Shown here: piece by piece, positions 7,998-63,659 of the stretch | Layout of the letters: every line of letters begins with the position of its first letter | Numbering within the stretch: position 1 is the stretch's first letter | Virus genome (UHGV): UHGV-1378817 | DNA: 64,000 nucleotides | Reading direction: 5' to 3' (one strand) | Source: a virus | The notes under the pieces: generated by a model | Database searches by the model: none | Told to the model about the DNA's origin: nothing | The model's input: the letters and a program-made list of their open reading frames with translations, nothing else | Position numbers and translations under genes: made by a program

Positions 7998-8099
7998 AAG
8001 CTTTACCCCTCAAAACAGTATAACAAAATAGCCCTCGTGTTAGAGGGCTAGTATCTCCGATTACTCTATTCTACCACATCTAATTAAGATTGGCAACAC

Positions 8100-9647
8100 T
8101 TAGATAAAACGCTTGAACATAGAAGGTGATGAGATTGATGGAATCACACAAGGAAGTGCTACCTCCTCTTTCTCCAGGAAATTAATCGCAGAAGCTACAC
8201 AGTCGGCCCAGTCGTCTTTTCTATTAAATGTTGATCTTTCCCCGTTGAATTTTTCAAGTTCAGTCAGAAATGCTTCCAGAGTATCAGGATGGAAACTGGA
8301 TTTTACAATCCTCACCATTCCTTGTTGGGCAAGATTGGCAAAAGGTGAGAACCTTGTCAGTTTAGATTTGTTGGAAGGCATTGGGTCTTCTTCAACCCTA
8401 AACCCTTCGGCGAGCAAGGATCTAGAGGAGGTTAAGAACTCACTCTTACCTGCCTGACCTGGGTCCACAGAGAAGACGATTATGCAATCATCACCATCAA
8501 ACTGCGCCTGTTTCCTGATGATCACATCTCGTTCACCAGCCTTTTTACAGAACTTGCCTTCCAGACCTGTGGAATACCTCCCGTCATCCACGTTCTCAGG
8601 ACAATAATCACCGGACAGGTAATAAAAGCCGTCGCTATCTTTACTTACCTTAACACTGGCGGTAAAGTCAGGAAACTTATTACCAGAAGTTCTCTCGGTT
8701 CCTGCCTTATCCCATGCCCTACAAGATACTGATCCAAGGGGCACTCTGTCGGCATCACGAAGGAAAGATCTTTGAAAATAGTTTGCACCCTCAGGCTTTG
8801 CAAACCAGTTACCATGGAGAAGCTGAGCTTTTTCAAGCTCGGGCAGACCTTCAAGGAAAGCAAGGTATTCTGGGTTGTCTCTTAAGCAGACAGGATTATC
8901 GAATATTGTTGCGCCTATAAACGAGAATGACAACGGTCTTGGCTTGATCTCCACACCCAGTCCGTTAACCGTGGTGTATTTCTCTATCAACTCTTCTTTA
9001 GAGTCTCCCCAGATAAATTCACCGTCGCGTCGGATAAAATATCTTTTCTTACCACATTTCTCCGGATCTGGATACCCTTCATCGTCCAACCACCATCTAA
9101 CCAGTTTGGCAAGCATGTGTTCTGAATCGGGGTTACAGCTGATAACCATTCTTGATGGATACTTTGACTGAGATCGCAGACGAGACATCAGATAGTCTAT
9201 CTGCTCCCATTCGAACTGCGTGCCCTCATCGAAGCAAACCATGGTATACTCAAGCCCTTGATGGTTAAGCTTATCTTGTACATACTCCATGTGGCAGTAT
9301 TTTACAACAGCTCCCTTTTTGCTTCTATCCCACTTGCCAGTGTTCGGATCAAACCGTGGAAAAATGAACTTATGATCCTTCTCTCTGAACTTTGGCTTAA
9401 TGTTTTCAGGCAGATCACTATAAATAGCTACTGCTTTAGGCCATAGTCCACCCTCACCTTCCAACTGTGGGGTTGTTCTTCGGAACATAACCACAGAGCT
9501 GTGGGGGTCATCAATAATTTTAAGTGGCATCAATTGCAAGAGGAACGACTTGCCAGACCCTGCGGCACCGCCGATTACCAAAATATCTGCATCGTTTTCG
9601 AGGATCATCTTCTGCTTTTCAGAACACGGTCCGTAAATCTTAGACAT
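8100..9647 (-). CDS. terL: terminase large subunit
   Basis: 515 aa; N-terminal Walker A VIGGAAGSGKS, central acidic motifs, C-terminal nuclease-like half; first gene of morphogenesis block. Confidence 0.8.
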   Translation of the reverse strand: MSKIYGPCSEKQKMILENDADILVIGGAAGSGKSFLLQLMPLKIIDDPHSSVVMFRRTTPQLEGEGGLWPKAVAIYSDLPENIKPKFREKDHKFIFPRFDPNTGKWDRSKKGAVVKYCHMEYVQDKLNHQGLEYTMVCFDEGTQFEWEQIDYLMSRLRSQSKYPSRMVISCNPDSEHMLAKLVRWWLDDEGYPDPEKCGKKRYFIRRDGEFIWGDSKEELIEKYTTVNGLGVEIKPRPLSFSFIGATIFDNPVCLRDNPEYLAFLEGLPELEKAQLLHGNWFAKPEGANYFQRSFLRDADRVPLGSVSCRAWDKAGTERTSGNKFPDFTASVKVSKDSDGFYYLSGDYCPENVDDGRYSTGLEGKFCKKAGERDVIIRKQAQFDGDDCIIVFSVDPGQAGKSEFLTSSRSLLAEGFRVEEDPMPSNKSKLTRFSPFANLAQQGMVRIVKSSFHPDTLEAFLTELEKFNGERSTFNRKDDWADCVASAINFLEKEEVALPCVIPSISSPSMFKRFI

Positions 9648-9934
9648 TAACCTCTCTCCTTTGGAAACAGTGTTCTAATATAGTCTTGCAAAATGATCAA
9701 TTTAGCTCTATCATTGCTACAAGACAGATTATTATCCCTCATAATGCCAGAATTCACTGCATCTGGAGCACCTTTCTTCAAAGGCATAGCTTTAGCAGGT
9801 GGTTTCATGGCACCTTCCGGGGGTTTAACAATCAACCTTCCTACATCCGGAGGGTCAATCTTGTATTCTCTCTCAACGCTGGTTGCACACCCACATAATA
9901 ACAAGCACACAATAAACAGTGTAGCAACTCTCAT
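9647..9934 (-). CDS. putative o-spanin (Rz1-like outer-membrane lipoprotein)
   Basis: 95 aa; signal peptide with Cys-containing lipobox-like LLLCGCATS, Pro-rich mature part; overlaps preceding gene by 4 nt. Confidence 0.5.
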   Translation of the reverse strand: MRVATLFIVCLLLCGCATSVEREYKIDPPDVGRLIVKPPEGAMKPPAKAMPLKKGAPDAVNSGIMRDNNLSCSNDRAKLIILQDYIRTLFPKERG

Positions 9935-10329
9935 CGATCCTCCTGATTGATACTCTCATTATAAATATCTATAAGCTGATCAGGGAGTGTTGACTTCTTG
10001 CCTTCAGGTGATTGGAGGTAGATAATCTGCTTTTCTTTACCTGCCCTCTCAGCCATATTTAATTTATCCTGCAGATCAGAAAGAGATTTTTCAAGGTTTT
10101 TAACCTCCTCTGCGTGGCCCATTTTAATTTTGTCGGCCTGCTTTTGTTGCTGATCAAGGATCCGTTCCCACTTTAACTCTGTTGCTGACACACCCTCTTG
10201 GTAGGCATCATTAAGCTTGGAGTTAAACCAATACACGGCCCCAAGATAAGCTGTACCTATCGCAGCTGCAAAAACTAAACCTTTTATGATCCCTCTATAC
10301 CTACTCAGCCATGTTAAAACTGAAATCAT
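9931..10329 (-). CDS. putative i-spanin (Rz-like)
   Basis: 132 aa; N-terminal TM helix (GLVFAAAIGTAYLGAVYWF) then charged coiled-coil; immediately upstream of o-spanin candidate. Confidence 0.5.
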   Translation of the reverse strand: MISVLTWLSRYRGIIKGLVFAAAIGTAYLGAVYWFNSKLNDAYQEGVSATELKWERILDQQQKQADKIKMGHAEEVKNLEKSLSDLQDKLNMAERAGKEKQIIYLQSPEGKKSTLPDQLIDIYNESINQEDR

Positions 10330-10434
10330 TTTAAGGCTCCAGAAACGAAAAAACCCCGCAGCTATACAGCTAACGGGGCGGGTTAAAATTGAGTAACCTA
10401 AATAGATCGAAACTAACTAAAAGGAGACTAATAC

Positions 10435-10704
10435 TTATCGAGGCACTCGGTGGATGATTCTAACAGTAACTGCATTTTCATTCATCAAGTATGCATCTAC
10501 ATCTCTGTAAATATAAAACTTCTGCTCACTATCAACAACACAAGCTACCGCCCCTTCAGAGTTGTCTTCAAAAAAGACCACCACTGCATCGCAGCTGAGT
10601 TCATGATATGACTCTCGAAGATTTACAGCCAGAGGATTGAAATCGTCACGAAAATCTACGGTATGGGTTGGATTTACACGCTCTACAATTTTAAGTGTAT
10701 ACAT
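10435..10704 (-). CDS. hypothetical protein
   Basis: ORF track 10435-10794 runs into tRNA-Pro; trimmed to ATG at 10704 (MYTLKIV...) with AAGGA SD. Confidence 0.4.
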   Translation of the reverse strand: MYTLKIVERVNPTHTVDFRDDFNPLAVNLRESYHELSCDAVVVFFEDNSEGAVACVVDSEQKFYIYRDVDAYLMNENAVTVRIIHRVPR

Positions 10705-10750
10705 TTTAAAGGTTCCTTTTGTTTGTATATGTTTAAAGTATAACTGAAAG

Positions 10751-10827
10751 TGGTCTCCACGGAGTGATTCGAACACTCGACCTCCTGATCCCAAATCAGG
10801 CGCTCTACCAAGCTGAGCTACGCGGAG
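10751..10827 (-). tRNA. tRNA-Pro (anticodon UGG)
   Basis: Cloverleaf read by hand: 7-bp acceptor, D arm GCTC/GAGC, anticodon arm CCTGA-TTTGGGA-TCAGG, T loop TTCGAAT, encoded CCA. Confidence 0.8.
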
Positions 10828-10838
10828 TATTTATTATT

Positions 10839-10913
10839 TGGTGGCCCTGGGTGGAATTGAACCACCGTCTGGCGATTATGAGTCGCTTGCTTGAACCTTC
10901 CAGCTACAGGGCC
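10839..10913 (-). tRNA. tRNA-Met or Ile2 (anticodon CAU)
   Basis: Acceptor GGCCCTG/CAGGGCC, anticodon arm GCGA-CTCATAA-TCGC, T loop TTCAATT, encoded CCA. Confidence 0.7.
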
Positions 10914-10914
10914 A

Positions 10915-10990
10915 TGGTGCTGATAGCAGGACTCGAACCTGCAACCTATTGATTACAAATCAATTGCACTACCAATTGTGCTACATCAGC
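10915..10990 (-). tRNA. tRNA-Thr (anticodon UGU)
   Basis: Acceptor GCTGATG, D arm GCAC/GTGC, anticodon arm ATTGA-TTTGTAA-TCAAT, T loop TTCGAGT, CCA. Confidence 0.75.
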
Positions 10991-10995
10991 AAAAA

Positions 10996-11094
10996 GGTGC
11001 TAGGTGATGGAATCGAACCACCTATGTATTCAACGACTACCTCGTCTATTTTCAGGATTAAAAATCCTCGCCCTTGCCAAAGGGCTTACCTAGC
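10996..11094 (-). tRNA. atypical long tRNA-like element (~99 nt; anticodon loop reads UUU with 4-bp stem; long extra arm)
   Basis: Acceptor GCTAGGT/ACCTAGC and canonical T arm GGTGG-TTCGATT-CCATC are clear; anticodon arm and a 30-nt variable region are non-canonical; 3' end ACC not CCA. Confidence 0.35.
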
Positions 11095-11192
11095 TCAGTA
11101 TGTTGACCATGTTGCTAGTCGGCGATGACGACTGTAACATTTGATAATCCGGTTCTGCTTCCGGCTTTCGCTTAATTACAAGGTCAACAATA

Positions 11193-11283
11193 TGGCTGAG
11201 GGTAATGGAATCGAACCATCATCGAGTCATCCTCAACGGGACGGTTTTCAAGACCGCTTGAGCACCATTGCTCCCTACCCTCA
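11193..11283 (-). tRNA. tRNA-Ser (anticodon UGA), type II
   Basis: Acceptor TGAGGGT/ACCCTCA, 3-bp D stem, anticodon arm GCGGT-CTTGAAA-ACCGT, long variable arm, T loop TTCGATT, CCA. Confidence 0.75.
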
Positions 11284-11397
11284 TTTATAAACAATACTGA
11301 TAATGACACTGATTTTCGAGCAGTTAGTGACTAGTATAAACGACGATAAATATCAATGCCATTATCTGTATGATTTATGCATTTAAAACTATAAATT

Positions 11398-11484
11398 TGG
11401 TGGGGAGTGGTGGAGTCGAACCACCCGAGTCGCAATGACAATAGATTTACAGTCTACACCGCTACCTCTACGGGATAACTCCCC
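11398..11484 (-). tRNA. tRNA-Tyr (anticodon GUA), type II
   Basis: Acceptor GGGGAGT/ACTCCCC, anticodon arm GTAGA-CTGTAAA-TCTAT, variable arm, T loop TTCGACT, CCA. Confidence 0.75.
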
Positions 11485-11488
11485 AATT

Positions 11489-11563
11489 TGGCACCCCGTA
11501 CTGGACTCGAACCAGTGTCAACGGCTTAGAAGGCCGCTGCTTTATCCACTAAGCTAACAGGGC
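11489..11563 (-). tRNA. tRNA-Arg (anticodon UCU)
   Basis: Acceptor GCCCTGT/ACGGGGT (two G-U pairs), D arm GCTT/AAGC, anticodon arm GCGGC-CTTCTAA-GCCGT, T arm ACTGG-TTCGAGT-CCAGT, CCA. Confidence 0.7.
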
Positions 11564-11659
11564 ACTGGGTGGCTTTCTTTTACACCTTAGCCGCCAGAAA
11601 AGGTGGGAGACCATGTTTACAATATTACACTGTTAAGCAAAGTTTGTCAAGAAAATATT

Positions 11660-11998
11660 TTAGCTATTGCCAACAGGTTGTATTTCTGTGGTAAATGGCA
11701 TAAAAGGTGCTGGTTTTTCAGCCTCTTCTACTACCACCTCTTCCTCTTCACCAAACATCTCATCATATTCTTCCTGCATTCGGTCTGCCTTATCAAGAAC
11801 ATACTCTGCAATGCTTTGACGAATATTTTGTTTGGTTTTCGGGTCCAACATCAGCTCTCTTAAAACTTTGTGAGCTTCTGGAACCATCGCTATAAAAGAT
11901 TCCTTCATATCAAGGATGTTCTTCTCTAGCTGAATGGCGTTGGACTCCTCTTTCAGAGGTCTGCCTCTACGGCGACGCTTTTTAGTTGTATCCGCCAT
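11660..11998 (-). CDS. small basic/acidic DNA-binding-like protein (AT-hook-like KKRRRRGRP motif)
   Basis: ORF track 11660-12151 trimmed to ATG at 11998 (MADTTKKRRRRGRPLKEES...) with GGAGG SD; acidic C-terminal tail. Confidence 0.45.
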   Translation of the reverse strand: MADTTKKRRRRGRPLKEESNAIQLEKNILDMKESFIAMVPEAHKVLRELMLDPKTKQNIRQSIAEYVLDKADRMQEEYDEMFGEEEEVVVEEAEKPAPFMPFTTEIQPVGNS

Positions 11999-12009
11999 GT
12001 TTCCTCCAT

Positions 12010-20265: not shown

Positions 20266-20389
20266 TGTAGTGAGGTTCAGTAGGTAACGGTAGCCAATTG
20301 AATGATGGTTTTTCAATTGGCACCTACATAACCACACTATGTAGTGTTGTTGATCGGGTTAGTTATGAGTAAACTGGAGAGTATGAAAG

Positions 20390-20860
20390 ATGAAACTTGA
20401 TAAAAATGTTCAACGAAAAGCTTTCTTGGATATGATCGCATATTCGGAAGGCACAGATAATGGTAGACAACCTACCAAGGATCGGGGGTACGATGTCATA
20501 GTCGGAGGCAAGCTGTTCAGCGATTACAGCAAGCATCCCGGTGTTTACGTTAAGCTAAATGCTAAGCTTACCTCCTCCGCTGCTGGGCGTTACCAGGTTT
20601 TGGAGAAGTTTGCTAAACACTACATGAAACAGTTAGGATTACCAGATTTTGGCCCTGCCAGTCAGGACAAGATTGCGTTGCAACTGATCCGTGAGTGCAA
20701 GGCTCTCGCCGACATTGACGAAGGGCGTATCCACGAAGCTATCCGCAAATGCCGTTCCCGCTGGGCTTCGTTACCCGGTGCCGGATATGGTCAGCATGAA
20801 CAGAAGATCGAGAAGTTGATCGAGGTGTTTAAAAAGGCAGGCGGCATTGTTCTGGATTGA
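20390..20860 (+). CDS. endolysin, lambda R-like lysozyme/lytic transglycosylase
   Basis: Near-colinear with lambda R as recalled (QRKAFLDM.A.SEGTDNGRQ...GYDVIVGG...AGRYQ...WASLPGAGYGQ). Confidence 0.8.
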   Translation: MKLDKNVQRKAFLDMIAYSEGTDNGRQPTKDRGYDVIVGGKLFSDYSKHPGVYVKLNAKLTSSAAGRYQVLEKFAKHYMKQLGLPDFGPASQDKIALQLIRECKALADIDEGRIHEAIRKCRSRWASLPGAGYGQHEQKIEKLIEVFKKAGGIVLD

Positions 20861-20923
20861 TCATTGACATAACCACACGGACGTGGTATTGTTACCTCAT
20901 AAGATGTTCAGGAGGGTTTAACC

Positions 20924-21130
20924 ATGAAAGATTTTCTGTTGGCAATTTTGTTCATGGCAGCATGTCTGTCCTGTGGTGTCGTGTTTGCAGGTGAAACAGC
21001 GTATCTTGTCGATGTGTATCGGGACAATGGTAAACGTATTTGCCTTTATGAGACAAGCCAAGGTGAGCTCTACGAGCTTGTGAAACAAGGCGAGGCAGGT
21101 TCCTGCCCTCGCACCCATTTCTTTGAATAA
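20924..21130 (+). CDS. small secreted protein
   Basis: 68 aa with N-terminal signal-peptide-like hydrophobic segment (LLAILFMAACLSCGVVFA). Confidence 0.4.
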   Translation: MKDFLLAILFMAACLSCGVVFAGETAYLVDVYRDNGKRICLYETSQGELYELVKQGEAGSCPRTHFFE

Positions 21131-21139
21131 GGGGGATAC

Positions 21140-21604
21140 GTGGAAGACGGACGTTTAATGAAGTCTGAACGCAGGCTTATTGTGCAACTGATCCCAGAAA
21201 CAGCTTGGTATAATAACCTCCGAAACGCTGTGAAGAAGAGTGAGTGGGATAAGATCCGTAAGAAGTGCTACAGAGAAGCCAACTACACTTGTGAGGTGTG
21301 CGGCGGTAAAGGCAGCAAACATCCAGTGGAATGTCATGAACTTTACACTTTCGAAGAGGGAGTGATCCGGCTTGTCGGACTGATAGCGTTGTGCCCAGAT
21401 TGTCACACATCTGTGCATCCTGGGTTAGCAAATATCCGTGGAAAGTATGCTCAGGCAGTTAGTCAGTTGGCTAAGGTGAATAAGATCACTAAGGGTATGG
21501 CAGAGGCGTATTACCGAGACTGCTTTGCAGAGTGGCGTGAGCTTAGTAAAGTTCCGGAATGGAAGACTGACTTTTCTTGGATACATCAGTATTTGGAGAG
21601 TTAA
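21140..21604 (+). CDS. HNH endonuclease
   Basis: CEVCG...HELY...CPDCH zinc-finger HNH pattern. Confidence 0.55.
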   Translation: MEDGRLMKSERRLIVQLIPETAWYNNLRNAVKKSEWDKIRKKCYREANYTCEVCGGKGSKHPVECHELYTFEEGVIRLVGLIALCPDCHTSVHPGLANIRGKYAQAVSQLAKVNKITKGMAEAYYRDCFAEWRELSKVPEWKTDFSWIHQYLES

Positions 21605-22461
21605 GTGTGGTATACTACAATGACAATGATAAAGATGCAGTTGCTTGGTTGAAGAATCTAATATCTTTAGGACTACTTCCTCAAGGCGAGGTGGATGATC
21701 GTTCTATTACAGAGGTTACTGTAGAAGATCTTAGAGGTTTCACTCAGTGGCACTTCTTCGCTGGCATAGGTGGATGGCCTTTGGCCTTGAAACTTGCTGG
21801 CATTCCAGAAACTTGGTCGGTATGCACAGGATCTCCGTGCTGCCAACCTTTCTCTCAGGCAGGTAAGCAACGTGGAAAATTTGACCCAAGACATCTTGCA
21901 CCAACATACCTCCGGCTCGTTAAACAGCTTAAACCTGAGTTCATGTTTGGAGAGCAGGTTGCAAAAGCGGTTGAATCTGGATGGCTCGACGATATGCAGA
22001 ATGAAATGGAAAACTCTGGTTACAGCTTCGGGGCTTCCATACTTAATGCTGCAATCCTCAACGCCCCGCACCGCCGCGAACGACTTTACTTCGGGGCAGT
22101 TAGCAACGTGGTTAACCCCTACGGTAACTCAGGTAGGGTGCAGATCTCAGGAAGCGATGGAAAGGCGCAAGCAACAACGCTTAGCAACTGGCAGGAAGTC
22201 ATTAAGTCCTGGGAATCTGTGGGAGCAGGTGAGGATGTATTACGGGTGTGGGAGCATACAAGACAGTATCTATGCCGAGACGGAAAATGGCGTAAACTTC
22301 CTGAACCCGGCATTCCCTTGTTGGTTGATGGGCTATCCACCCCAATGGGATTGTCTCGCCACAAAGGCTTCGGTAACGCTATAGTTCCGCAAATAGGGGC
22401 ACTTTGGGTGCAAGAGTTTATGAAGTCAGTGGATGATTGTGTAAGAGGTGAGTATGGCTAA
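21577..22461 (+). CDS. DNA (cytosine-5)-methyltransferase
   Basis: Motif I FFAGIGG, motif IV PCCQPFSQAG, ENV-like FGEQV, motif X GNAIVP; start uncertain (overlaps HNH gene by 28 nt). Confidence 0.75.
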   Translation: MDTSVFGELSVVYYNDNDKDAVAWLKNLISLGLLPQGEVDDRSITEVTVEDLRGFTQWHFFAGIGGWPLALKLAGIPETWSVCTGSPCCQPFSQAGKQRGKFDPRHLAPTYLRLVKQLKPEFMFGEQVAKAVESGWLDDMQNEMENSGYSFGASILNAAILNAPHRRERLYFGAVSNVVNPYGNSGRVQISGSDGKAQATTLSNWQEVIKSWESVGAGEDVLRVWEHTRQYLCRDGKWRKLPEPGIPLLVDGLSTPMGLSRHKGFGNAIVPQIGALWVQEFMKSVDDCVRGEYG

Positions 22462-42545: not shown

Positions 42546-42779
42546 ATGAAAGTTAAATTTCTTACAGATTTAGGGTACCCTTCCTTGGTTGACTGTGTTG
42601 GTAAAATTGTGGAAGCAAAACGGCTATCTGCAAACGAGAATGTTGTCCTGGTTAAAGGGAAGGATTTACTAGCTGCAGGTGCAGAGTCTGGCAGGATCTC
42701 TCCTGATTATATGTATTACCTATCTTTAAGTAATCTGCCAGAGCGAGGCGGTAAAGGCCTTGAAGTTGTGGAGGAGTGA
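42546..42779 (+). CDS. small protein, paralog family A (MKVK...G.DL[IL]AAGA...VEE)
   Basis: Shares N-terminal MKVKFL, central KGKDLLAAGAESG and C-terminal EVVEE with 46201 and 46418 ORFs. Confidence 0.45.
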   Translation: MKVKFLTDLGYPSLVDCVGKIVEAKRLSANENVVLVKGKDLLAAGAESGRISPDYMYYLSLSNLPERGGKGLEVVEE

Positions 42780-42784
42780 CAGGT

Positions 42785-43309
42785 ATGCTTCTGATTAACT
42801 GGGAAGACCTCTATGGGGACAAAGACCCTGTTGCGTTTGTTGATCGTAGGTGGAGATACACTGAAGAACAACTGGCGGCAAAAAATTTAACTGCAAAACG
42901 CAGAAAGATCATCCAGTGCAAGTACAAATACGCACAGTTTGCTGCAAAAGTGTCTCCACAAATCGAGAGCTTTGTGCTTAAATTGTATGACGAGTACCTC
43001 AAATTCCAATTGGATTTTGTGCAGGTGTACCGTGCACAGGTACGACCAGATACCAACATATGTAGATGGAAGGTTGTTTGTGAAGGTAAAGATTTGCCGC
43101 TCAGCTTGACAATTGAGTGGCGTTATGGGTATCATGAGTGTGGTCTGTATGATATTTGGGATGTCATTGTAGATCCTGCTAAGCATCTGAACACAGAGGA
43201 GCTGGAATATATCAATAAGGTTATTCTCGATATGTTTTTCAGCTACACACATGAAAACTCTGAGAAAGAACGGGATAATTTTCTTGACACCCTCAGCGAC
43301 CATTTGTAG
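42785..43309 (+). CDS. hypothetical protein
   Basis: Start at ATG 42785 with GGAGGAG SD; 174 aa. Confidence 0.45.
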   Translation: MLLINWEDLYGDKDPVAFVDRRWRYTEEQLAAKNLTAKRRKIIQCKYKYAQFAAKVSPQIESFVLKLYDEYLKFQLDFVQVYRAQVRPDTNICRWKVVCEGKDLPLSLTIEWRYGYHECGLYDIWDVIVDPAKHLNTEELEYINKVILDMFFSYTHENSEKERDNFLDTLSDHL

Positions 43310-43339: not shown

Positions 43340-43567
43340 ATGAGTATAAATGTTGTGCTAATAGGTTACCTGGTAATGTCCGTTATAACAGCGGTATTCT
43401 TGACAGGTGTATGCATCGTGTCCAGACGAAGGGTGAAGTTTGATGATTTTATCACCATCATCACTGCTGCACCTTTTTGGCCTGTTGTTATCTTCATCGT
43501 AATAATGTGCCTAGTTGATTACTACAAGAATATCAGGAAGGAGAGTAGGGATGGAGGCCGCACCTAA
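43340..43567 (+). CDS. small membrane protein (two predicted TM helices)
   Basis: 75 aa; hydrophobic segments VVLIGYLVMSVITAVFLTGVCIV and ITAAPFWPVVIFIVIMCLV. Confidence 0.45.
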   Translation: MSINVVLIGYLVMSVITAVFLTGVCIVSRRRVKFDDFITIITAAPFWPVVIFIVIMCLVDYYKNIRKESRDGGRT

Positions 43568-43786
43568 AACTATCTATACTGTTCTTAAAGAGATTGCGTT
43601 CTACGCAGATCTTAGCCAGGCACCTTTATGGGAAAAGAGCATGTATTTAAAATGGTGCGTTAATTTAGGGAGACCTTCCAGTGTTTCAAGCCATGTTTAT
43701 TGAGATGCTATCTGGGATATTGTTACTGGTAGCCATCTTAGGTGGTGCAGTTCTGATGTATAACTATCTTGAAAAAGGAGACAGCA

Positions 43787-43972
43787 ATGGTAAAAAATAA
43801 ATCTTTAGAGCAGGCTGAAAACCTTCTCCACGAGCTGGTAAAGGAGTGGAAAGTTGAATACTCAGATTTTAATGCACGAGAGGGTGAAGATTATTGGCCT
43901 ACGGAGCGCTCAGAGGGCGAATGGTATCAAGATTTTATAGAGTGGTTATATCAGACGTGCGATGAGGGGTGA
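43787..43972 (+). CDS. hypothetical protein
   Basis: ATG 43787 with AAGGAG SD (track start is upstream TTG). Confidence 0.35.
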   Translation: MVKNKSLEQAENLLHELVKEWKVEYSDFNAREGEDYWPTERSEGEWYQDFIEWLYQTCDEG

Positions 43973-43974
43973 CG

Positions 43975-44439
43975 ATGTTTGTTAAATATGTAAAAACGTG
44001 CCTCAACAGTCTTGGCAGAGAGCATTGGTACACCTTGCTTGAAAAAGGGGAAATTTTAACAAAATCTGGAAAGATAACTTTGATACCTCTTGATAGTAAA
44101 GGTAAAGACCCGTCACGACTTGTTATAGATGATTACGTTACAGGTGTGACGTTCGAGGTCTCTGTGGAGAGGTTAATACGCAGAGCTGGCGGCCCTTATG
44201 ACCGAAGAGAGTATGTTTTCGATTCCGTTACAGAGATGGGGGAGCATCCGTCTTTAATGTTCAGGATGGTAATCAGAGATATGAGGTCATCTATAGATAG
44301 GATCGTAAAGGACATTAAGGAACCTTTTAGAGTAAAAGTTAAGAAGTTTTTCGATTCTAAGATTAACATACTCGCCGTTGCACTAGGTGTAGTTCAACTT
44401 CTGTTAATTTTGCACTATTTTGAACTACTATTTAAGTAG
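43975..44439 (+). CDS. hypothetical protein
   Basis: ATG 43975 with GAGGGG SD; C-terminal hydrophobic segment. Confidence 0.4.
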   Translation: MFVKYVKTCLNSLGREHWYTLLEKGEILTKSGKITLIPLDSKGKDPSRLVIDDYVTGVTFEVSVERLIRRAGGPYDRREYVFDSVTEMGEHPSLMFRMVIRDMRSSIDRIVKDIKEPFRVKVKKFFDSKINILAVALGVVQLLLILHYFELLFK

Positions 44440-50682: not shown

Positions 50683-50946
50683 ATGAACATCCTGATGTGG
50701 GTTGTAGCAGTGGCGTTTGTTGCATGTTTTTGCTGCTGGGTTGCGGTGAGGATTTCTGTAGCTACCCTTCGGAAGTTGGGGTTCTCAGAGTGGGATATTA
50801 ATATTCTTTCTTTTCGCAATGAAACAATCTCAGCCGCCCTGCTCTGTAAGAAATTCAAGTGGGAACCTTGTGAGGTCATGAGCTATCTAAGAACAGGTGA
50901 TATCCCTGAAAGATTTAAAAAAGTTCTTGACGGCGATGATAAATGA
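50683..50946 (+). CDS. membrane protein (N-terminal TM)
   Basis: 87 aa; MNILMWVVAVAFVACFCCWVAV hydrophobic N-terminus. Confidence 0.4.
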   Translation: MNILMWVVAVAFVACFCCWVAVRISVATLRKLGFSEWDINILSFRNETISAALLCKKFKWEPCEVMSYLRTGDIPERFKKVLDGDDK

Positions 50947-51101
50947 CAGTATAGTGACTAACAAGAGGTGGTGAGTGATTGATTTTACTGAAGCTTTAAT
51001 GATGGCCTTGTCTGTTTTAGCGCTATCGGTGTGTTTTGGGGCGTTATTCACATCTCTGGTTAAAGTTTTACATACAGTATTATTACCCAAGGAGCGCAGT
51101 A

Positions 51102-51353
51102 ATGACGAAGATTGACTTGAATGCTGGCGACCATGTTGTTGTCAAATGCATTGGAGATTATCTTGGATTCACAATCGGCAATACTTACGAAGCGGTAGTG
51201 GCGAAGGTTTATCATGATAAAGTCCTCAGTCTTGTATTTGACTGCGATGATGATGGGGATGACCGATACGTCTGTGAGGTGCTGGCACGAGACGATAGTG
51301 AAGACCAGAAATTCCTGGTTATTGAACTGAACGGTATTTTTGTAGAACGTTAA
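51102..51353 (+). CDS. hypothetical protein
   Basis: ATG 51102 with AAGGAG SD (track start is further upstream). Confidence 0.4.
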   Translation: MTKIDLNAGDHVVVKCIGDYLGFTIGNTYEAVVAKVYHDKVLSLVFDCDDDGDDRYVCEVLARDDSEDQKFLVIELNGIFVER

Positions 51354-53213: not shown

Positions 53214-53334
53214 AGCACCGAGCCCACACAGGTTCCTCATGCTAAAGCATGGCCTGAAGAGGCAAACGTGCATAATTCCCGTGCATTGGAACGTATAAAA
53301 CCCTGTTCACACTCTCATTTCCAGAGGAGATTTC

Positions 53335-53550
53335 ATGAAGATAGAAATATTTGGTGGGGCTGACAACACTCGTGGCCTGATTTACCTTGAATTTGATGAA
53401 TCATACCTGCCAGAGGTGTTAAATATAGACTCTGTTGCTGAGGCTTTGGGAGTAAACCCTAAAGAACTCCACTCTTGTGCTGAGATCGATGGTTGGGAAG
53501 AGACCATGAACATTGATTTCAGTGAAGTAGAGGACGAACCGCTGGACTGA
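53335..53550 (+). CDS. hypothetical acidic protein
   Basis: 71 aa; MKIEIFGG N-terminus; last plus-strand gene before non-coding region. Confidence 0.4.
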   Translation: MKIEIFGGADNTRGLIYLEFDESYLPEVLNIDSVAEALGVNPKELHSCAEIDGWEETMNIDFSEVEDEPLD

Positions 53551-53679
53551 CACACAATTAGCTGCCCGGCTAAAGTGCTGGAAGCGCACCTATAACACAT
53601 CTTTCAACTAAATTTCCTACCACCACAATCACTTACCTCCAACACATGACTGTTTGCTTGTTTAGTGAGCAGTCATGCC

Positions 53680-53707
53680 TTGACATTCTTGCCTATCCTG
53701 ATAAAAT
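53680..53707 (+). promoter_or_regulatory. sigma70-like promoter firing into ORF-poor region
   Basis: TTGACA, 16-nt spacer, TAAAAT; no convincing ORF downstream. Confidence 0.4.
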
Positions 53708-55021
53708 TAAGTTCTTCTCTTTTCTTTTACCGAGTAATTCGGGTTTTCTGTTCTCTTCGGTTTGAAGGGGTATGGAGATACACCTGAGTGAACAGGGTGA
53801 ACAACCGAACCATTGGCTATGGCATTAGCATGGCGAAGCGGACGGGTGACGAAAGAGGGGCCGGAGGACACCAGTCACTGCCATATGATATATGGGTGAT
53901 AACCTGAAGAGTCTGAATAAGTGTTTAAGTACCAGTCAGAGGAAAAGGTGAATGGTAGCCGAAGGGGGAGGGGGGTTTCTTGTATCTTTAATTTGTATAT
54001 TATGTATACACTTGTAAACCAATATCATCTAGATCTGTTTACCACACAAAGTGGATAGAGACAAATATTACCTATTAAACTTGAATTATTTATAGAAAAT
54101 ACCACAACACCACTTAAGTCTTTGATTTTACACACAAATCTTACAGATATTCAACCTCCATATTTAACATACCTGTAACATATTCCATACTCTACCTGCC
54201 TGATCAATTTCCCCAACTACATCCCTCATATTTCCCCTGTCTGTACTACCCTGCCCCACCGGGAGTCCCGTCATATCTGGCTTTCCAGCAAATATCACAC
54301 CCACAAATATCATGCCTGAAGAGGGTTTCATCCCATAATACCTGCCTTGCCTGAAGAGCGCTTCATACACCACGTAAATTTTTTAATTGACCTCCCCTGC
54401 CCCGCCGGAGAGGTTGGCTTTTCCCACACAGACCTGAAGAGTCAGCCAGAAATATCTGAATAGGCCCAGTTCTACCACGATTTTGACCTGACCTACAGGA
54501 GCGCTGCCAGGCGGACGAAATGGGAATACTTCTCATTCTTATAACAATTCTCAAATATCGAGGCAGTGAGGCAAATTAATAGGCCAGGCCGTTCACACAG
54601 TGGCACAACATTTGCAACCTATCTTGTGGGGGTGAATGAGAATACCTATCATTGTGAGAACCATTATCATTACGGGCAATTTAACATAATACCCATTATG
54701 CGCACCACTGGTGATACATACAGGGATTGATAACACGAGTTACAGTTTACGCATATAACAATCATATTTCTTACTATTTGTGTGGGATATAGTTAGCAGC
54801 CGATAGATTAGATATTGACCTGTGGACTTCCAACCGTCTAGACGTCTAAGCGCCCACACAACAAGGCTTATACATACATTACTGAATGTAAACAGGGCCG
54901 CAAAAATGCTACCATACCAGTTTGTAAATTTTCATGCAGCACTTGACAAAGAGGAGGAAAACTTGTCTGACACAATGTCACACAATATGACACAATAACG
55001 GCTGTTACCATTCCATATCTC

Positions 55022-55077
55022 ACTGTTTACGCATAGACTGTTTACGCCTGGATAGTTTACACCTTGACAGTTTACAC
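55022..55077. repeat. four direct iteron-like repeats with exact 15-bp periodicity (ACTGTTTACGC x2, ATAGTTTACAC, ACAGTTTACAC)
   Basis: Repeat starts at 55022, 55037, 55052, 55067; further copies of the core at 54742-54752 and 55493-55502. Confidence 0.7.
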
Positions 55078-55150
55078 AGATATGATAAGCCATGACATTC
55101 GTTTGCATGAAAACAATTAGCAAGTTAACAATTAACAAGTTAATAATATA

Positions 55151-55303
55151 TGACATAATATAAAAGCAGGGCAACTATTAGAAGATCTATAGTTGCCTTG
55201 CTTGTTATGTCATGATTAACTAAATACAAGGCAACTATGATCTGATTAATAGTTTGCAGACAAACTATCACGGGGGTGATGGTTACTGCTTTTATATTAT
55301 GTC
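55151..55303. repeat. ~150-bp element bounded by perfect 18-bp inverted repeats, containing internal GGCAACTAT palindromes
   Basis: Left arm GACATAATATAAAAGCAG (55152-55169), right arm CTGCTTTTATATTATGTC (55286-55303); inside, GGCAACTAT-N10-ATAGTTGCC. Confidence 0.6.
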
Positions 55304-55946
55304 GCGACTCCGTCGCGCCATGCCATTCGTTTGCATAGTTGCCTTATTGTTACAGATAAAATAATTGTATTGTTAATTATTTCTTATCTTTCTATTAGTC
55401 ATCTAATGATTCCGGTTAGTATAGTAACGTACAGTAAACATTAGACGACTAAATATTTCTATGTTTATGATAACCTATCGTGACAATTCCGGACTGTTTA
55501 CGAAAAATGTTGACACCTGAGCTGATTTATGTTATGCAATTTAAACGAATAATTATTTTATGCAGGTATTGACTATTCCGTTATTCTATGGTTGGAATAA
55601 ATACTTAGCAAGCTATAGAATGGTGAGCGTACGTAAATTCTGAGATTTGTCGGCTATAGTTATACTCGATTTTTCACGTAGAACACGCTTTTTGGTTTGT
55701 GTAAGTGTATGACTTATAAAGATTTTTAGTTGTTGACAAGATATTGAAGATGTGCATCAGGTTAAATTTTGTGCAATAGCTGCATTACGTGCAATTTTGG
55801 AAGGAAAACTGGTAAAAATAGCACCGATACCACACAATGAAAGGTTATGCAATAGCTATTTTATATGTATATTTGTACAGTGTGCAGGATTGATGGCTCG
55901 TCAATTATTCCACTTGCCAGGTAGGGCCGTTTATGGTAGGGGAAGA

Positions 55947-55977
55947 GCAGACAAAAAGAAAGGGGCCTAAGCCCCTT
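55947..55977 (-). terminator. intrinsic terminator closing the minus-strand gene block
   Basis: AGGGGC-ctaa-GCCCCT hairpin followed on minus strand by TCTTTTTGT, about 20 nt after stop of 55996-56415. Confidence 0.6.
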
Positions 55978-55995
55978 GATAATTCAGTTAAAAAA

Positions 55996-57564: not shown

Positions 57565-57713
57565 TTTTACCGCTCTTTAAAACAAGGTGCCAACCGTTTC
57601 CAATAGATCACTAACTATCAGGACAATACTGATCAGCACATATCTAACCATAAGGGGAAAGAGCGCCAGCGATCCCGCCACAATCCCCAAGGTGATGATT
57701 ATCTTTCTCATGG

Positions 57714-57998
57714 TTAACGGTTTACGTAAGTTTTCCCGTTCACGGTTATGGGCAGATCCTCCAGGTCTGGATCTTCCTTAAGGTCGCGAGCAAGCTCACC
57801 GCACCGGATACCCTCGAATCCGTAGTACTCTGTCGTGCCGTCCTTAAAAGTTTTAGCGGCAAGGCATAAGCGATAAGTAACCCCGATTCGATTGACGGCA
57901 TGAATATCCGTTAGATTAACCTCTTTTGCCAGCTCTTTAGCCATTACAGGCGCATTAAGTCCAACAACCAGGGCAACCACTGCGATCATCTTTTTCAT
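57714..57998 (-). CDS. secreted/periplasmic small protein
   Basis: 94 aa; signal-peptide-like N-terminus MKKMIAVVALVVGLNAPVMA. Confidence 0.45.
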   Translation of the reverse strand: MKKMIAVVALVVGLNAPVMAKELAKEVNLTDIHAVNRIGVTYRLCLAAKTFKDGTTEYYGFEGIRCGELARDLKEDPDLEDLPITVNGKTYVNR

Positions 57999-60621: not shown

Positions 60622-60741
60622 TTAGTTACTTACTGCGATAAAGTACATCCCTACGCCTAGCAATATTTCAAGGGCGATGATCTCAAGCCATACCATAACC
60701 CGGCGCGCCTTATCGGTGCGGGGCTTATCCTTGGTTGTCAT
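60622..60741 (-). CDS. small membrane peptide (39 aa)
   Basis: MTTKDKPRTDKARRVMVWLEIIALEILLGVGMYFIAVSN; strong SD AGGAGGAAAGGGGGAG; below ORF-track cutoff. Confidence 0.35.
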   Translation of the reverse strand: MTTKDKPRTDKARRVMVWLEIIALEILLGVGMYFIAVSN

Positions 60742-60910
60742 CGTCTCCCCCTTTCCTCCTGGTAGTAGTGACGCGATCTACAATGACCCCCAGGAGTCCT
60801 ATCACGACACACATCACGAGAAAAATTATCTCCGCTGTTGTTCGGTCCATTATTATAAAAGTCCTCAAGATCAGGCCTGAAAATAAAGCTTTCGTTATTG
60901 AATCCATCAC
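60725..60910 (-). CDS. small membrane protein
   Basis: 61 aa with hydrophobic core (IIFLVMCVVIGLLGVIV). Confidence 0.3.
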   Translation of the reverse strand: MMDSITKALFSGLILRTFIIMDRTTAEIIFLVMCVVIGLLGVIVDRVTTTRRKGGDDDNQG

Positions 60911-60960: not shown

Positions 60961-61332
60961 TTATTTAAACGGCTGGCCCACATATTTTCTATTCCTCTCA
61001 AATAGGCGATCCGCCTCAGTTAAACATATCTCATGGGCTTGATCTCTGGTTTTAGCTTCATCAAAAACCTGTTGCGCCAGGCTGCAACGTAGGGAGACTG
61101 GAAGATCACTATAATAGGCGTTGACAAACGTTTGAGCGTCGTACAGGTCTGAAAATACTTTACCCTTTCTATTATCGCCTTTGTCAACAATTGCAAGGAT
61201 AACAAGTACAATAGTTGCAACCACCCCCAGGAAAATAGATATAATAAACCATAAAAAGGCGGATCTACCTATCTTGCCAGCGATCCAGGCGTTGAACAAG
61301 GCAACTACTACAGCCAAAATAATAAATTCCAT
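60961..61332 (-). CDS. membrane protein
   Basis: Start set to ATG 61332 (MEFIILAVVVALF...) with AAAGAGG SD; two hydrophobic segments. Confidence 0.4.
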   Translation of the reverse strand: MEFIILAVVVALFNAWIAGKIGRSAFLWFIISIFLGVVATIVLVILAIVDKGDNRKGKVFSDLYDAQTFVNAYYSDLPVSLRCSLAQQVFDEAKTRDQAHEICLTEADRLFERNRKYVGQPFK

Positions 61333-61396
61333 TCTATGTACCTCTTTTGTAGTTCTGTTTAACAATAAGGCGGCAAATATGCCGCCTGTTACCTGA

Positions 61397-63043: not shown

Positions 63044-63265
63044 TTATTTGCCTTTGTGGCGGTATCGTTCCGCCTGTCGTTCACGTTCCAAAAGCAGGCC
63101 CGGTAATTTGCGATCATAATGATTCCGCCAGATCTTCCCAAATCTTTTTGGCTTATTCAGTTTATTGTTGCGCTGGCGGCGTTCCGGCAGCTCTTCGGAA
63201 GCATGAGATCGCTTTACAATCTTCTCAAAATTAATCTTCATATATTCCCCCCTTGCTAACTTCAA
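63044..63265 (-). CDS. hypothetical basic protein
   Basis: 73 aa, Arg/Lys-rich. Confidence 0.35.
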   Translation of the reverse strand: MKLARGEYMKINFEKIVKRSHASEELPERRQRNNKLNKPKRFGKIWRNHYDRKLPGLLLERERQAERYRHKGK

Positions 63266-63584
63266 TATTGGCCTGAATAGCCCGGATACGGCGCTTTATA
63301 ACTTCCTGATCTGTGTGATCGTATCCCCAAAAGTCTACGATTTTTGCGCCTCCAGCCTTTAGGCGGTATAGTGTTTCTTGCATCTTGTAAGCCGGGATCG
63401 GTCGCGGTGTTACCTGGTCGCCCTTCTCATTCTTGTACTTGATAATGTAGTCTTCATTGTCGTTGAATACCCAAAATGGGTATTCTGTGAGCGCGTTGCT
63501 CTCTTTTTCGTTTTTAGATTGGATCTTGTTTACAATTAAAGCCGTAGCAATAGCGCCAATAATAAAACTTGCCCCGCTGATCAT
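63231..63584 (-). CDS. membrane-anchored hypothetical protein
   Basis: Start set to ATG 63584 (MISGASFIIGAIATALIV...) with AAGGAG SD. Confidence 0.4.
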   Translation of the reverse strand: MISGASFIIGAIATALIVNKIQSKNEKESNALTEYPFWVFNDNEDYIIKYKNEKGDQVTPRPIPAYKMQETLYRLKAGGAKIVDFWGYDHTDQEVIKRRIRAIQANIEVSKGGIYED

Positions 63585-63659
63585 GTACTTTCTCCTTTCA
63601 TTGTGTTGATAAACTGTCTTTATAGATGGCCCTGCTACCAGGACCACCGAAAAAACAGC

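What the first reader, a model, noticed from the sequence alone, without database searches (positions are those of the whole stretch)
9647..10329. Lysis genes are split: spanin pair beside the terminase, endolysin 10 kb away on the other strand, no adjacent holin
A separated i-spanin/o-spanin candidate pair lies immediately upstream of the large terminase, whereas the lambda R-type endolysin (20390-20860) is in the plus-strand metabolism block with no membrane protein next to it. This implies separately regulated lysis components and an unidentified holin elsewhere.
Basis: partly seen in the sequence, partly recalled or inferred. Interest (0 to 1): 0.4.

Follow-up and report, generated by a model that had tools for sequence, protein, structure and literature searches.

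The report
Known spanin genes beside phage terminase
The two small genes are the already-annotated outer-membrane-disruption (spanin) genes of an rV5-like E. coli phage, and their separation from the cell-wall enzyme gene and the lack of an identified holin are already published, so the finding is correct but ordinary.

Summary
The window is a Vequintavirus (rV5/FV3-like) E. coli myophage, 98.8% identical to deposited genomes. The ORFs at 9931-10329(-) and 9647-9934(-) exist as described. They are a separated i-spanin/o-spanin pair.

- **i-spanin:** N-terminal transmembrane segment, then a long helix, a linker and a C-terminal helix.
- **o-spanin:** lipobox LLCGC with Cys16, Ala at +2, and 9 prolines in the 80-residue mature part.
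- **Packing:** the genes overlap by ATGA, and the o-spanin stop overlaps the TerL start (TAATG).
- **Family:** both match "Rz-like spanin" PHROGs (1.6e-49 and 1.3e-22).

The order tRNAs, i-spanin, o-spanin, TerL, portal is kept in four Vequintavirinae genera, with an invariant lipobox Cys. The endolysin at 20390-20860(+) is a lambda R homologue (E 1.5e-56) with no signal or SAR segment.

All of this is published: GenBank and UniProt annotation, the Kongari 2018 "rv5" spanin family, the CB7 paper (spanins next to TerL), and the LL12 announcement (holin not identified).

One correction: a 68-aa ORF with an N-terminal hydrophobic signal sequence lies 64 nt downstream of the endolysin, but it looks secreted rather than holin-like. 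The published rV5 "putative holin" gp129 corresponds to 43340-43567(+) and is unproven. The verdict is already known and of low interest.

The parts
9931..10329 (-). i-spanin gene (132 aa). It has an N-terminal TMD at about residues 14-36, a periplasmic helix to about residue 101, a linker, and a C-terminal helix carrying the invariant DIYNES motif.
   Evidence: ORF. phrog_4297 'Rz-like spanin' 1.6e-49, plus weaker hits to two other spanin PHROGs. Hydropathy. AF2 secondary structure. Conserved in 4 genera. Annotated as i-spanin in Murica and UniProt.
9647..9934 (-). o-spanin gene (95 aa). It is an outer-membrane lipoprotein precursor with lipobox L-C-G-C (Cys16), Ala at +2, and a Pro-rich mature part with one further Cys (Cys72).
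   Evidence: ORF. phrog_1267 'Rz-like spanin' 1.3e-22. Lipobox regex and composition. L13, G15 and C16 are invariant across 4 genera. Annotated as o-spanin.
8100..9647 (-). Large terminase subunit, intact here with no intron. Its ATG shares one base with the o-spanin stop codon (TAATG).
   Evidence: phrog_979 1.7e-208. Sequence. Annotation.
10347..10379 (-). Intrinsic-terminator-like hairpin plus U-tract that ends about 17 nt before the i-spanin ATG. There is no room for a promoter between the two.
   Evidence: RNA fold -20.3 kcal/mol, z -2.24. Annotated as a terminator in Murica.
8029..8050 (-). Terminator-like hairpin just downstream of TerL. It is preceded, between TerL and the hairpin, by an extended -10 type promoter-like site (8096-8068) that would serve the portal gene. 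The spanin-TerL block therefore appears to be bounded by terminators.
20390..20860 (+). Endolysin, a lambda R-type lytic transglycosylase (GH104). It is cytoplasmic, with no signal or SAR segment.
   Evidence: PDB 1am7 1.5e-56. phrog_90 4.7e-56. Hydropathy. Source names.
20924..21130 (+). 68-aa ORF (rV5 gp90 equivalent) 64 nt downstream of the endolysin. It has an N-terminal signal peptide (VFA|GE) and a roughly 45-aa mature part with two conserved Cys. It is most likely a small secreted periplasmic protein and not a holin.
   Evidence: phrog_4641, function unknown. The Acinetobacter phage ABPH49 homologue has an AHA|SQ site and the same two Cys, with no lambda-R endolysin beside it.
20864..20892 (+). 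Sigma-70-like promoter (TTGACA-17-TATTGT with an extended TG) in front of the 68-aa ORF. It contains one of the two exact ACATAACCACAC copies that flank the endolysin gene.
   Evidence: Equals rV5 P090.
43340..43567 (+). 75-aa protein with two TMDs, the homologue of rV5 ORF129, which is the only published 'putative holin' for this phage type. It is an unproven candidate.
   Evidence: 87% identity to rV5 94058-94291 (H111). rV5 paper and Table S3. No holin family match in PHROGs, Pfam or NCBIfam. Alignment.

Best explanation
The window belongs to an rV5-like Vequintavirus. The ORFs at 9931-10329 and 9647-9934 (minus strand) encode a two-component spanin of the 'separated' architecture.

Inferred mechanism, from the lambda Rz/Rz1 and T4 PseT.3/PseT.2 paradigms:
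- The 132-aa protein is anchored in the inner membrane by its N-terminal TMD and extends a mostly helical domain into the periplasm.
- The 95-aa protein is lipidated at Cys16 and sorted to the outer membrane, since residue +2 is Ala and not Asp.
- The two C-termini bind, so the complex spans the periplasm through the murein meshwork.
- Once the endolysin has degraded the peptidoglycan, the complex fuses the inner and outer membranes and completes lysis.

Shown from the sequence: the genes are packed against TerL and probably translationally coupled to it, inside the structural/late gene block.

The peptidoglycan step is supplied by a cytoplasmic lambda R-type transglycosylase at 20390-20860, on the opposite strand in the DNA-metabolism block. 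That enzyme needs a hole-forming holin encoded somewhere else. The holin is still unidentified. The lysis genes are therefore dispersed as in T4 rather than organised as a lambda-type cassette.
For: - **Genome identity:** 98.8% to Shigella phage CM1 and Escherichia phage FV3. Many records already annotate the i-spanin, o-spanin and TerL here.
- **Family:** PHROG spanin families at 1.6e-49 and 1.3e-22.
- **Sequence features:** lipobox, +2 Ala and Pro richness; a single TMD followed by helix-linker-helix.
- **Conservation:** the order tRNAs, i-spanin, o-spanin (4-nt overlap), TerL, portal is kept in Henunavirus, Seunavirus and Mydovirus at only 26-30% (i-spanin) and 35-42% (o-spanin) identity. 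The lipobox L..GC, the TMD and the C-terminal motifs are invariant.
- **Literature:** rv5 is listed as a family of separated spanins (PMC6139136). [quoted passage not shown] For LL12, the endolysin, i-spanin and o-spanin were identified but the holin was not (PMC6658697).
- **Endolysin:** lambda lysozyme 1am7 at E 1.5e-56, with no hydrophobic segment.
Against: - I found no experimental test of these particular proteins, such as complementation of Rz/Rz1 or lipidation. The function rests on architecture, family membership and synteny.
- The i-spanin has no Cys, and the single periplasmic Cys of the o-spanin (Cys72) is not conserved in the other genera. Kongari et al. describe intermolecular disulfides as a near-universal spanin feature.
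- A terminator-like hairpin lies directly upstream, and there is no recognisable promoter for the spanin-TerL block, so the time of expression is unknown.
- The AF2 model was made from a single sequence (mean pLDDT 74, pTM 0.31) and only supports secondary structure.
Confidence: 0.93

Rival explanations
1. The position just upstream of TerL is where a small terminase subunit usually sits. On this view the 132-aa helical protein would be TerS or another packaging factor. The 95-aa lipoprotein would be an unrelated moron, for example a superinfection-exclusion lipoprotein of the Llp or Cor type.
For: The position is immediately 5' of TerL with translational coupling. The protein has a long helical region as in TerS oligomerisation domains. 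No TerS is annotated next to TerL in these genomes. One source even calls the protein a 'nucleic acid-binding Zn-ribbon protein'.
Against: The protein has a conserved N-terminal TMD, no helix-turn-helix and no Cys at all, so it cannot be a Zn ribbon. It is always paired by a 4-nt overlap with a lipoprotein gene whose lipobox is invariant across four genera. It also gives specific hits to three different spanin PHROGs and none to TerS families.
Confidence: 0.03
2. The dispersal of lysis genes has no regulatory meaning and is a historical product of modular replacement. The spanin-TerL linkage would be ancestral to Vequintavirinae, while the endolysin is an exchangeable cassette dropped into the DNA-metabolism block. 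This is compatible with the best explanation and rivals only the 'separately regulated' inference.
For: - Spanin-TerL synteny is kept in four genera.
- The related Acinetobacter phage ABPH49 has the ligase and the 68-aa ORF homologue in the same order but no lambda-R endolysin between them.
- Relatives of PVP-SE1 are reported to carry their lysozyme in the structural module, plus a SleB-like hydrolase elsewhere (PMC12210895).
- An exact 12-mer, ACATAACCACAC, occurs only twice in the window and brackets the endolysin gene.
Against: A 12-mer pair within 1 kb is only marginally beyond chance. My rough estimate of about 0.03 was not produced by a tool. The second copy lies inside a promoter-like site, so the repeat may simply be two related promoters. 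That reading would favour regulation instead. There are no expression data either way.
Confidence: 0.45
3. The missing holin is the 68-aa ORF right after the endolysin. On this view a normal endolysin-holin pair exists after all and the first reader overlooked it.
For: The ORF is adjacent, 64 nt downstream on the same strand. It is small and has a very hydrophobic N-terminal segment (KD 2.6). Some records call it a 'putative membrane protein'.
Against: - The hydrophobic segment is followed by a signal-peptidase-type site (VFA|GE, or AHA|SQ in the ABPH49 homologue).
- The conserved part is the soluble 45-aa domain with two invariant Cys, not the hydrophobic segment.
- There is no charged cytoplasmic tail.
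- In ABPH49 the homologue is not next to this endolysin.
- It has no holin-family match.
- Annotators who specialise in lysis genes left it as hypothetical and reported the holin as not identified.
Confidence: 0.04

Closest known systems
rV5 ORF66/ORF67 and the 'rv5' family of separated two-component spanins (Kongari et al. 2018, PMC6139136; annotated i-/o-spanin in phages Murica, LL12, A51.2 and the BASEL Vequintaviruses)
   Same: These are the same genes. The i-spanin is 96% identical to the rV5 protein (H177). Lengths (132 and 95 aa), gene order and position next to TerL are identical.
   Different: There is no functional difference. Here TerL is uninterrupted, whereas rV5 and several relatives carry introns or a homing endonuclease in TerL.
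T4 PseT.3/PseT.2 spanins and the dispersed T4 lysis genes (e, t, pseT.2/3)
   Same: Both have the separated spanin architecture with stop/start overlap. [quoted passage not shown]
   Different: No sequence relationship to the T4 proteins was tested or found. No match to a T-type holin family was found for any candidate tested. The endolysin is lambda R-type (GH104), whereas T4 E is, from my own knowledge, GH24.
Lambda Rz/Rz1
   Same: The two-component logic is the same: an inner-membrane protein with N-terminal TMD and helix-linker-helix, plus a Pro-rich outer-membrane lipoprotein. Both partner with a lambda R-type transglycosylase.
   Different: Lambda Rz1 is embedded inside Rz and sits in an S-R-Rz/Rz1 cassette behind one late promoter. 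Here the genes are separated, sit next to TerL, and lie 10 kb from the endolysin on the other strand. The i-spanin has no Cys for the disulfide links described in lambda.
Lambda R lytic transglycosylase (PDB 1am7, 3d3d)
   Same: The endolysin at 20390-20860 aligns over its full length at E 1.5e-56 and keeps the catalytic Glu motif SEGT.
   Different: The genomic context differs. It sits between the DNA ligase and an HNH endonuclease, with no holin upstream.

Membership tests
Two-component spanin (i-spanin/o-spanin) | The i-spanin has a single N-terminal transmembrane domain. | tested here: met
   There is one hydrophobic segment at residues 14-32 (KD 1.8). It lies inside predicted helix 12-101. 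It is present in all four genera aligned.
Two-component spanin (i-spanin/o-spanin) | The i-spanin periplasmic domain is mainly alpha-helical, with two helical stretches separated by a linker. | tested here: met
   AF2 gives helices 12-101 and 115-127 with a low-confidence linker at 102-114. This is a single-sequence model and was used for secondary structure only. Heptad a/d hydrophobic occupancy is 0.62-0.75 over residues 57-105.
Two-component spanin (i-spanin/o-spanin) | The o-spanin has a lipoprotein signal with a lipobox Cys and no Asp at +2, which directs outer-membrane sorting. | tested here: met
   There is a PS51257-type match, LFIVCLLLCGC, with Cys16, Arg2 in the n-region and Ala at +2. 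L13, G15 and C16 are invariant across four genera, which otherwise read LVGC. Actual lipidation cannot be tested here.
Two-component spanin (i-spanin/o-spanin) | The o-spanin is small and proline-rich. | tested here: met
   The mature part is 80 aa with 9 Pro.
Two-component spanin (i-spanin/o-spanin) | The two genes are adjacent in an embedded, overlapped or separated architecture. | tested here: met
   The architecture is separated, with an ATGA stop/start overlap. The same arrangement is seen in Hena1, PVP-SE1 and KPP-1.
Two-component spanin (i-spanin/o-spanin) | Periplasmic cysteines are available for homotypic intermolecular disulfide bonds. | tested here: inconclusive
   The i-spanin has no Cys. 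The o-spanin has one periplasmic Cys (Cys72), which is absent from the three other genera.
Two-component spanin (i-spanin/o-spanin) | The pair is needed for outer-membrane disruption, shown by complementing lambda Rz/Rz1. | not testable with these tools
   This needs a wet-lab complementation experiment. I found no published test for the rv5 family.
Two-component spanin (i-spanin/o-spanin) | Sequence membership of a curated spanin family. | tested here: met
   phrog_4297 at 1.6e-49 and phrog_1267 at 1.3e-22, both 'Rz-like spanin'. The rv5 family is listed in PMC6139136.
Lambda R-type (GH104) canonical endolysin | Homology to lambda lysozyme with the catalytic Glu conserved, and no signal or SAR segment. 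| tested here: met
   1am7 at E 1.5e-56 with the aligned SEGT motif. Maximum 19-residue hydropathy is 0.42. Pfam-A gave no hit at E<=0.1 in this copy, but PHROG, PDB and source names agree.
Lambda-type lysis cassette (holin-endolysin-spanin in one late operon) | The holin, endolysin and spanin genes are contiguous on one strand. | tested here: not met
   The spanins and endolysin are 10 kb apart on opposite strands. No holin-family protein is adjacent to either.
Holin (candidate ORF 43340-43567, homologue of rV5 ORF129) | A small protein with at least one TMD and a charged C-terminal tail. | tested here: met
   It is 75 aa with two hydrophobic segments (3-21 and 40-58) and the tail YYKNIRKESRDGGRT.
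Holin (candidate ORF 43340-43567, homologue of rV5 ORF129) | Membership of a described holin family, linkage to a lysis gene, or class II topology (N-in/C-in with an uncharged periplasmic loop). | tested here: not met
   It gives no holin-family hit in PHROGs, Pfam or NCBIfam. Its neighbours have no lysis function. The inter-TMD loop SRRRVKFDD is strongly basic, which by the positive-inside rule argues against a periplasmic loop (sequence; this step is inference). The family is restricted to the genus Vequintavirus.
Holin (candidate ORF 43340-43567, homologue of rV5 ORF129) | Hole formation that releases the endolysin and can be triggered by energy poisons. | not testable with these tools
   This needs expression and complementation experiments.

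The most novel reading that the evidence does not exclude
The holin of rV5-like phages may belong to a family not yet recognised as holins, and it may not be the published candidate.

None of the membrane-protein ORFs I tested matches any curated holin family. That covers ten in the window plus rV5 gp029 and gp031.

The sharpest version of this reading places the real holin outside this window. It would be one of the small membrane proteins conserved throughout Vequintavirinae directly after the tail-fibre assembly gene:
- the rV5 gp029 family, about 88 aa, in which I read two weakly hydrophobic TMDs and a charged tail from the sequence;
- the rV5 gp031 family, which has a TMD followed by a coiled coil.

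This echoes the position of T4 t next to gene 38. The Sec-signal-bearing SleB-like hydrolase next to rIIA might provide a second, partly holin-independent route to the murein.
Probability: 0.3. Interest if true: 0.35.

Novelty: already known. Interest (0 to 1): 0.1.

Why it matters
The finding matters little as it stands. The spanin pair, its location beside TerL, the distant lambda-R-type endolysin and the failure to identify a holin are all in GenBank and UniProt annotation and in several papers (PMC6139136, PMC7344957, PMC6658697, PMC3606486).

The remaining open point is the identity of the holin in Vequintavirinae, which are widely used therapeutic and biocontrol phages. That is a modest, well-posed question. 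It can be answered with a few cloning experiments, and it would improve annotation of several hundred genomes.

Tried and rejected
1. **Holin family searches.** I scanned ten of the window's membrane-protein ORFs, plus rV5 gp029 and gp031, against PHROGs, Pfam and NCBIfam. No holin family matched.

2. **The 68-aa ORF as holin.** I rejected this. It has a cleavable-signal-like N-terminus. The conserved part is a soluble domain with two Cys. In phage ABPH49 it is not linked to this endolysin.

3. **The 132-aa ORF as TerS.** I rejected this (see rivals).

4. **The rV5 'late promoter' motif TGGTAAAATA.** The motif is enriched in the window (16 matches against 6.6 expected). No copy lies in front of the spanins, the endolysin or ORF75, so it gave no timing information.

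5. **Sigma-70 and terminator scan around the spanins.** It found no promoter between the upstream terminator and the i-spanin ATG.

6. **'Putative glycosidase' upstream of ORF75.** This BASEL annotation (window 42776-43309) has no Pfam or PHROG support for any hydrolase. It does not make ORF75 part of a second lysis pair.

7. **Literature search for Vequintavirinae transcriptomics.** It returned nothing usable.

8. **Rfam scan of the window.** It found only tRNAs.

9. **Searches not run.** I did not run the expensive whole-database protein searches, because the answer was already decisive.
Full report
**What the window is.** Megablast of 8000-12000 against GenBank phages gives 100% coverage at 98.8% identity to Shigella phage CM1 and Escherichia phage FV3. 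A long series of rV5-like myophages (genus Vequintavirus) follows. Many of these records already label the features under the match as 'terminase large subunit', 'i-spanin', 'o-spanin' or 'Rz-like spanin'. The curated annotation of phage Murica maps one-to-one onto the window here:
- TerL at 8100-9647
- o-spanin at 9647-9934
- i-spanin at 9931-10329
- a terminator at 10354-10378
- a small hypothetical gene, then seven tRNAs

**Check of the observation.** The ORFs exist at exactly the stated coordinates on the minus strand. The sequence shows three tightly packed genes, each with its own Shine-Dalgarno sequence. The i-spanin stop overlaps the o-spanin start (ATGA), and the o-spanin stop overlaps the TerL start (TAATG).

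Both features are present.
- The 95-aa protein matches a PROSITE-type lipobox (LFIVCLLLCGC, Cys16). It has Arg2 in the n-region, Ala at +2 (no inner-membrane retention signal) and 9 prolines in the 80-residue mature part.
- The 132-aa protein has one hydrophobic segment at residues 14-32.
- A single-sequence AlphaFold model of it (mean pLDDT 74) gives a continuous helix 12-101, a low-confidence linker at 102-114 and a helix at 115-127. This is the TMD plus helix-linker-helix layout of Rz-type i-spanins.
- Both proteins hit PHROG families described as 'Rz-like spanin', at 1.6e-49 and 1.3e-22. The i-spanin also hits two further spanin PHROGs more weakly.

**Comparative evidence.** tblastn with the i-spanin finds 195 phage records. 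About 76 of them are below 60% identity and come from Klebsiella, Salmonella, Cronobacter, Erwinia and other hosts.

I examined three diverged genera: Henunavirus Hena1, Seunavirus PVP-SE1 and Mydovirus KPP-1. In all three the order is tRNA array, (hypothetical), i-spanin, o-spanin with 4-nt overlap, TerL, portal.

The alignments show the following:
- In the o-spanin, the lipobox residues L13, G15 and C16 are invariant. The other genera read a canonical LVGC. A C-terminal block NNL..R.KL..LQ.Y.R..F is conserved.
- In the i-spanin, the TMD and a C-terminal DIYNES motif are conserved at only 26-30% overall identity.

Conservation of the signals rather than of the bulk sequence is what a functional spanin pair predicts. 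One feature does not fit the usual picture. The i-spanin has no Cys, and the only periplasmic Cys of the o-spanin (Cys72) is confined to Vequintavirus.

**The endolysin.** ORF 20390-20860(+) aligns over its full length with lambda lysozyme R (PDB 1am7, E 1.5e-56), including the catalytic SEGT motif. Sources name it endolysin, GH104 or Lysozyme R. Its most hydrophobic 19-residue window scores only 0.42, so it has no signal or SAR segment and must be released by a hole-forming holin. It lies between the DNA ligase and an HNH endonuclease in the plus-strand DNA-metabolism block, 10.06 kb from the spanins.

'No membrane protein next to it' is not literally right. A 68-aa ORF at 20924-21130, equivalent to rV5 gp90, starts 64 nt after the endolysin. 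It sits behind a sigma-70-like promoter (TTGACA-17-TATTGT), and its N-terminus is very hydrophobic (residues 4-22, KD 2.6).

It is unlikely to be the holin, for four reasons:
- The hydrophobic segment ends in a signal-peptidase-type site, VFA|GE.
- The only distant homologue I inspected, in the Acinetobacter Vequintavirinae phage ABPH49, has AHA|SQ at that position. It conserves the soluble ~45-residue part, including both cysteines, rather than the hydrophobic part.
- In ABPH49 the gene keeps its place between the ligase and the exonuclease, with no lambda-R endolysin next to it.
- It matches only an unknown-function PHROG.

I read it as a small secreted periplasmic protein of unknown role.

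**What is already published.**
- Kongari et al. 2018 list 'rv5' (rv5, 2_JES-2013, FV3 and others) as a family among separated two-component spanins (PMC6139136).
- The CB7 paper states that in CB7, rV5 and PVP-SE1 the spanin pair is not part of a classic lysis cassette but lies next to the large terminase gene. It adds that this makes holin identification difficult (PMC7344957).
- The rV5 genome paper names gp89 as the lysin. [quoted passage not shown]

The finding therefore reproduces existing knowledge almost sentence for sentence.

**The holin question.** The window homologue of rV5 ORF129 is 43340-43567(+), 75 aa, 87% identical at rV5 94058-94291. It has two hydrophobic segments and a basic tail.

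Several points weaken it as a candidate:
- It matches no holin family.
- It is restricted to the genus.
- Its neighbours have no lysis function. The BASEL label 'putative glycosidase' on the upstream gene has no profile support.
- Its inter-TMD loop (SRRRVKFDD) is strongly basic, which argues against the class II N-in/C-in topology. This last point is inference.

Within the genus, TMD2 and the loop are invariant while TMD1 and the tail drift. The gene is therefore real and under selection, but its function is open.

Other genuine small membrane-protein genes in the window are listed below. Those scanned against PHROGs, Pfam or NCBIfam hit no holin family; the ORFs at 57577-57711 and 60622-60741 were not scanned.
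- 43681-43800 (39 aa)
- 43969-44439 (C-terminal TMD, 'virion structural protein')
- 50683-50946
- 50975-51115
- 57577-57711
- 57714-57998 (signal peptide)
- 60622-60741
- 60725-60910
- 60961-61365 (two TMDs)
- 63231-63647

Three genes outside the window also bear on the question:
- rV5 gp002 is a SleB-like Hydrolase_2 enzyme with an N-terminal signal sequence, next to rIIA.
- rV5 gp029 (phrog_1322) and gp031 (phrog_5345) are small membrane proteins in the tail-fibre cluster.

Both gp029 and gp031 are conserved throughout Vequintavirinae, in 369 and 224 phage records respectively. In Seunavirus and Certrevirus they form a contiguous run of three membrane-protein genes right after the tail-fibre assembly gene. 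I regard these as at least as plausible as ORF129, but nothing here proves any of them.

**Regulation.** The spanin-TerL block is bounded by two hairpins. One hairpin plus U-tract ends about 17 nt before the i-spanin ATG (-20.3 kcal/mol). Another terminator lies just after TerL. No sigma-70-like site and no copy of the rV5 'late' motif lies in front of the spanins.

The endolysin and the spanins do belong to different, divergent transcription units as proposed for rV5. Whether they are expressed at different times is not known, and I found no transcriptome data.

An alternative, non-exclusive reading is that the dispersal is historical. The spanin-TerL linkage is ancestral, while the endolysin is an exchangeable gene. 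An exact 12-mer (ACATAACCACAC) occurs only twice in the window and brackets the endolysin gene. The significance of that repeat is marginal.

**Verdict.** The finding is already known, and its interest is low. The only open point is the holin, which is a defined experimental question rather than a surprise.

Noticed in passing
window 20924-21130 (+): A 68-aa ORF lies directly after the endolysin and has its own promoter-like site. It has a signal peptide and a ~45-aa domain with two conserved Cys (LVDxYRD...C.Y...AGxCP). It is conserved at 38% identity in Acinetobacter phage ABPH49, where the ORF is unannotated. It is a small secreted protein of unknown role, possibly periplasmic immunity or lysis control.
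   Followed up: partly
window 20326-20337 and 20867-20878 (+): The exact 12-mer ACATAACCACAC has only two exact copies in the 64 kb window, and they bracket the endolysin gene. The downstream copy lies within a TTGACA-17-TATTGT promoter-like site. The pair could be two related promoters or the edges of an inserted cassette.
   Followed up: partly
window 10347-10379 (-): A strong terminator-like hairpin ends about 17 nt upstream of the i-spanin start codon, with no recognisable promoter for the spanin-TerL block. Expression would need read-through or an unrecognised promoter type.
   Followed up: partly
window ~53230-55990: A 2.7-kb stretch between the convergent plus- and minus-strand gene blocks has no ORF longer than 80 aa. 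The rV5 paper calls the equivalent stretch non-coding. It contains short tandem repeats (54970-54997, 55025-55075, 55112-55147) and nearby inverted repeats (55152-55169/55286-55303 and 55221-55239/55334-55352). It has no Rfam match. I have not tested whether it is an origin-like or regulatory region.
   Followed up: partly
window 10996-11094 (-): A 99-nt tRNA-like gene is reported by ARAGORN with a 4-base anticodon (atcc). It gets only 35.5 bits from the Rfam tRNA model. GenBank records annotate it inconsistently as tRNA-OTHER, Asp|Gly or Lys.
   Followed up: no
window 21577-22461 (+): The window carries about 0.9 kb more than phage Murica after the HNH endonuclease gene. The extra ORF is 294 aa and looks like a C5 cytosine methyltransferase (GIGGW and PCCQPFSQAGK motifs). 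I did not check it against profiles.
   Followed up: no
window 8100-9647 (-): TerL is uninterrupted here. In rV5, slur12/16 and O157 typing phage 14 the TerL match is split into two pieces by an intron or homing-endonuclease insertion.
   Followed up: no
GenBank MG0656xx records (hits to window 8000-12000 and others): About 18-20 records named 'Campylobacter phage' with host C. jejuni are at least 98% identical to this E. coli phage type. The host labels are probably wrong, or the samples were contaminated.
   Followed up: no
outside the window: rV5 NC_011041.1 1980-2480, 20937-21203, 22348-22662; L011 3001-4070; L012 3001-4081: rV5-type genomes encode a second muralytic enzyme, a SleB-like Hydrolase_2 with a signal peptide, next to rIIA. 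They also carry small membrane-protein genes after the tail-fibre assembly gene that are conserved throughout the subfamily. In Seunavirus and Certrevirus these form three consecutive genes. They are unstudied candidates for the missing holin or antiholin.
   Followed up: partly
window 43340-44439 (+): Membrane-protein genes cluster in the small-ORF region. They are the 75-aa two-TMD protein (rV5 ORF129 homologue), a 39-aa single-TMD protein at 43681-43800, and a 156-aa protein with a C-terminal TMD that PHROGs call a virion structural protein.
   Followed up: partly
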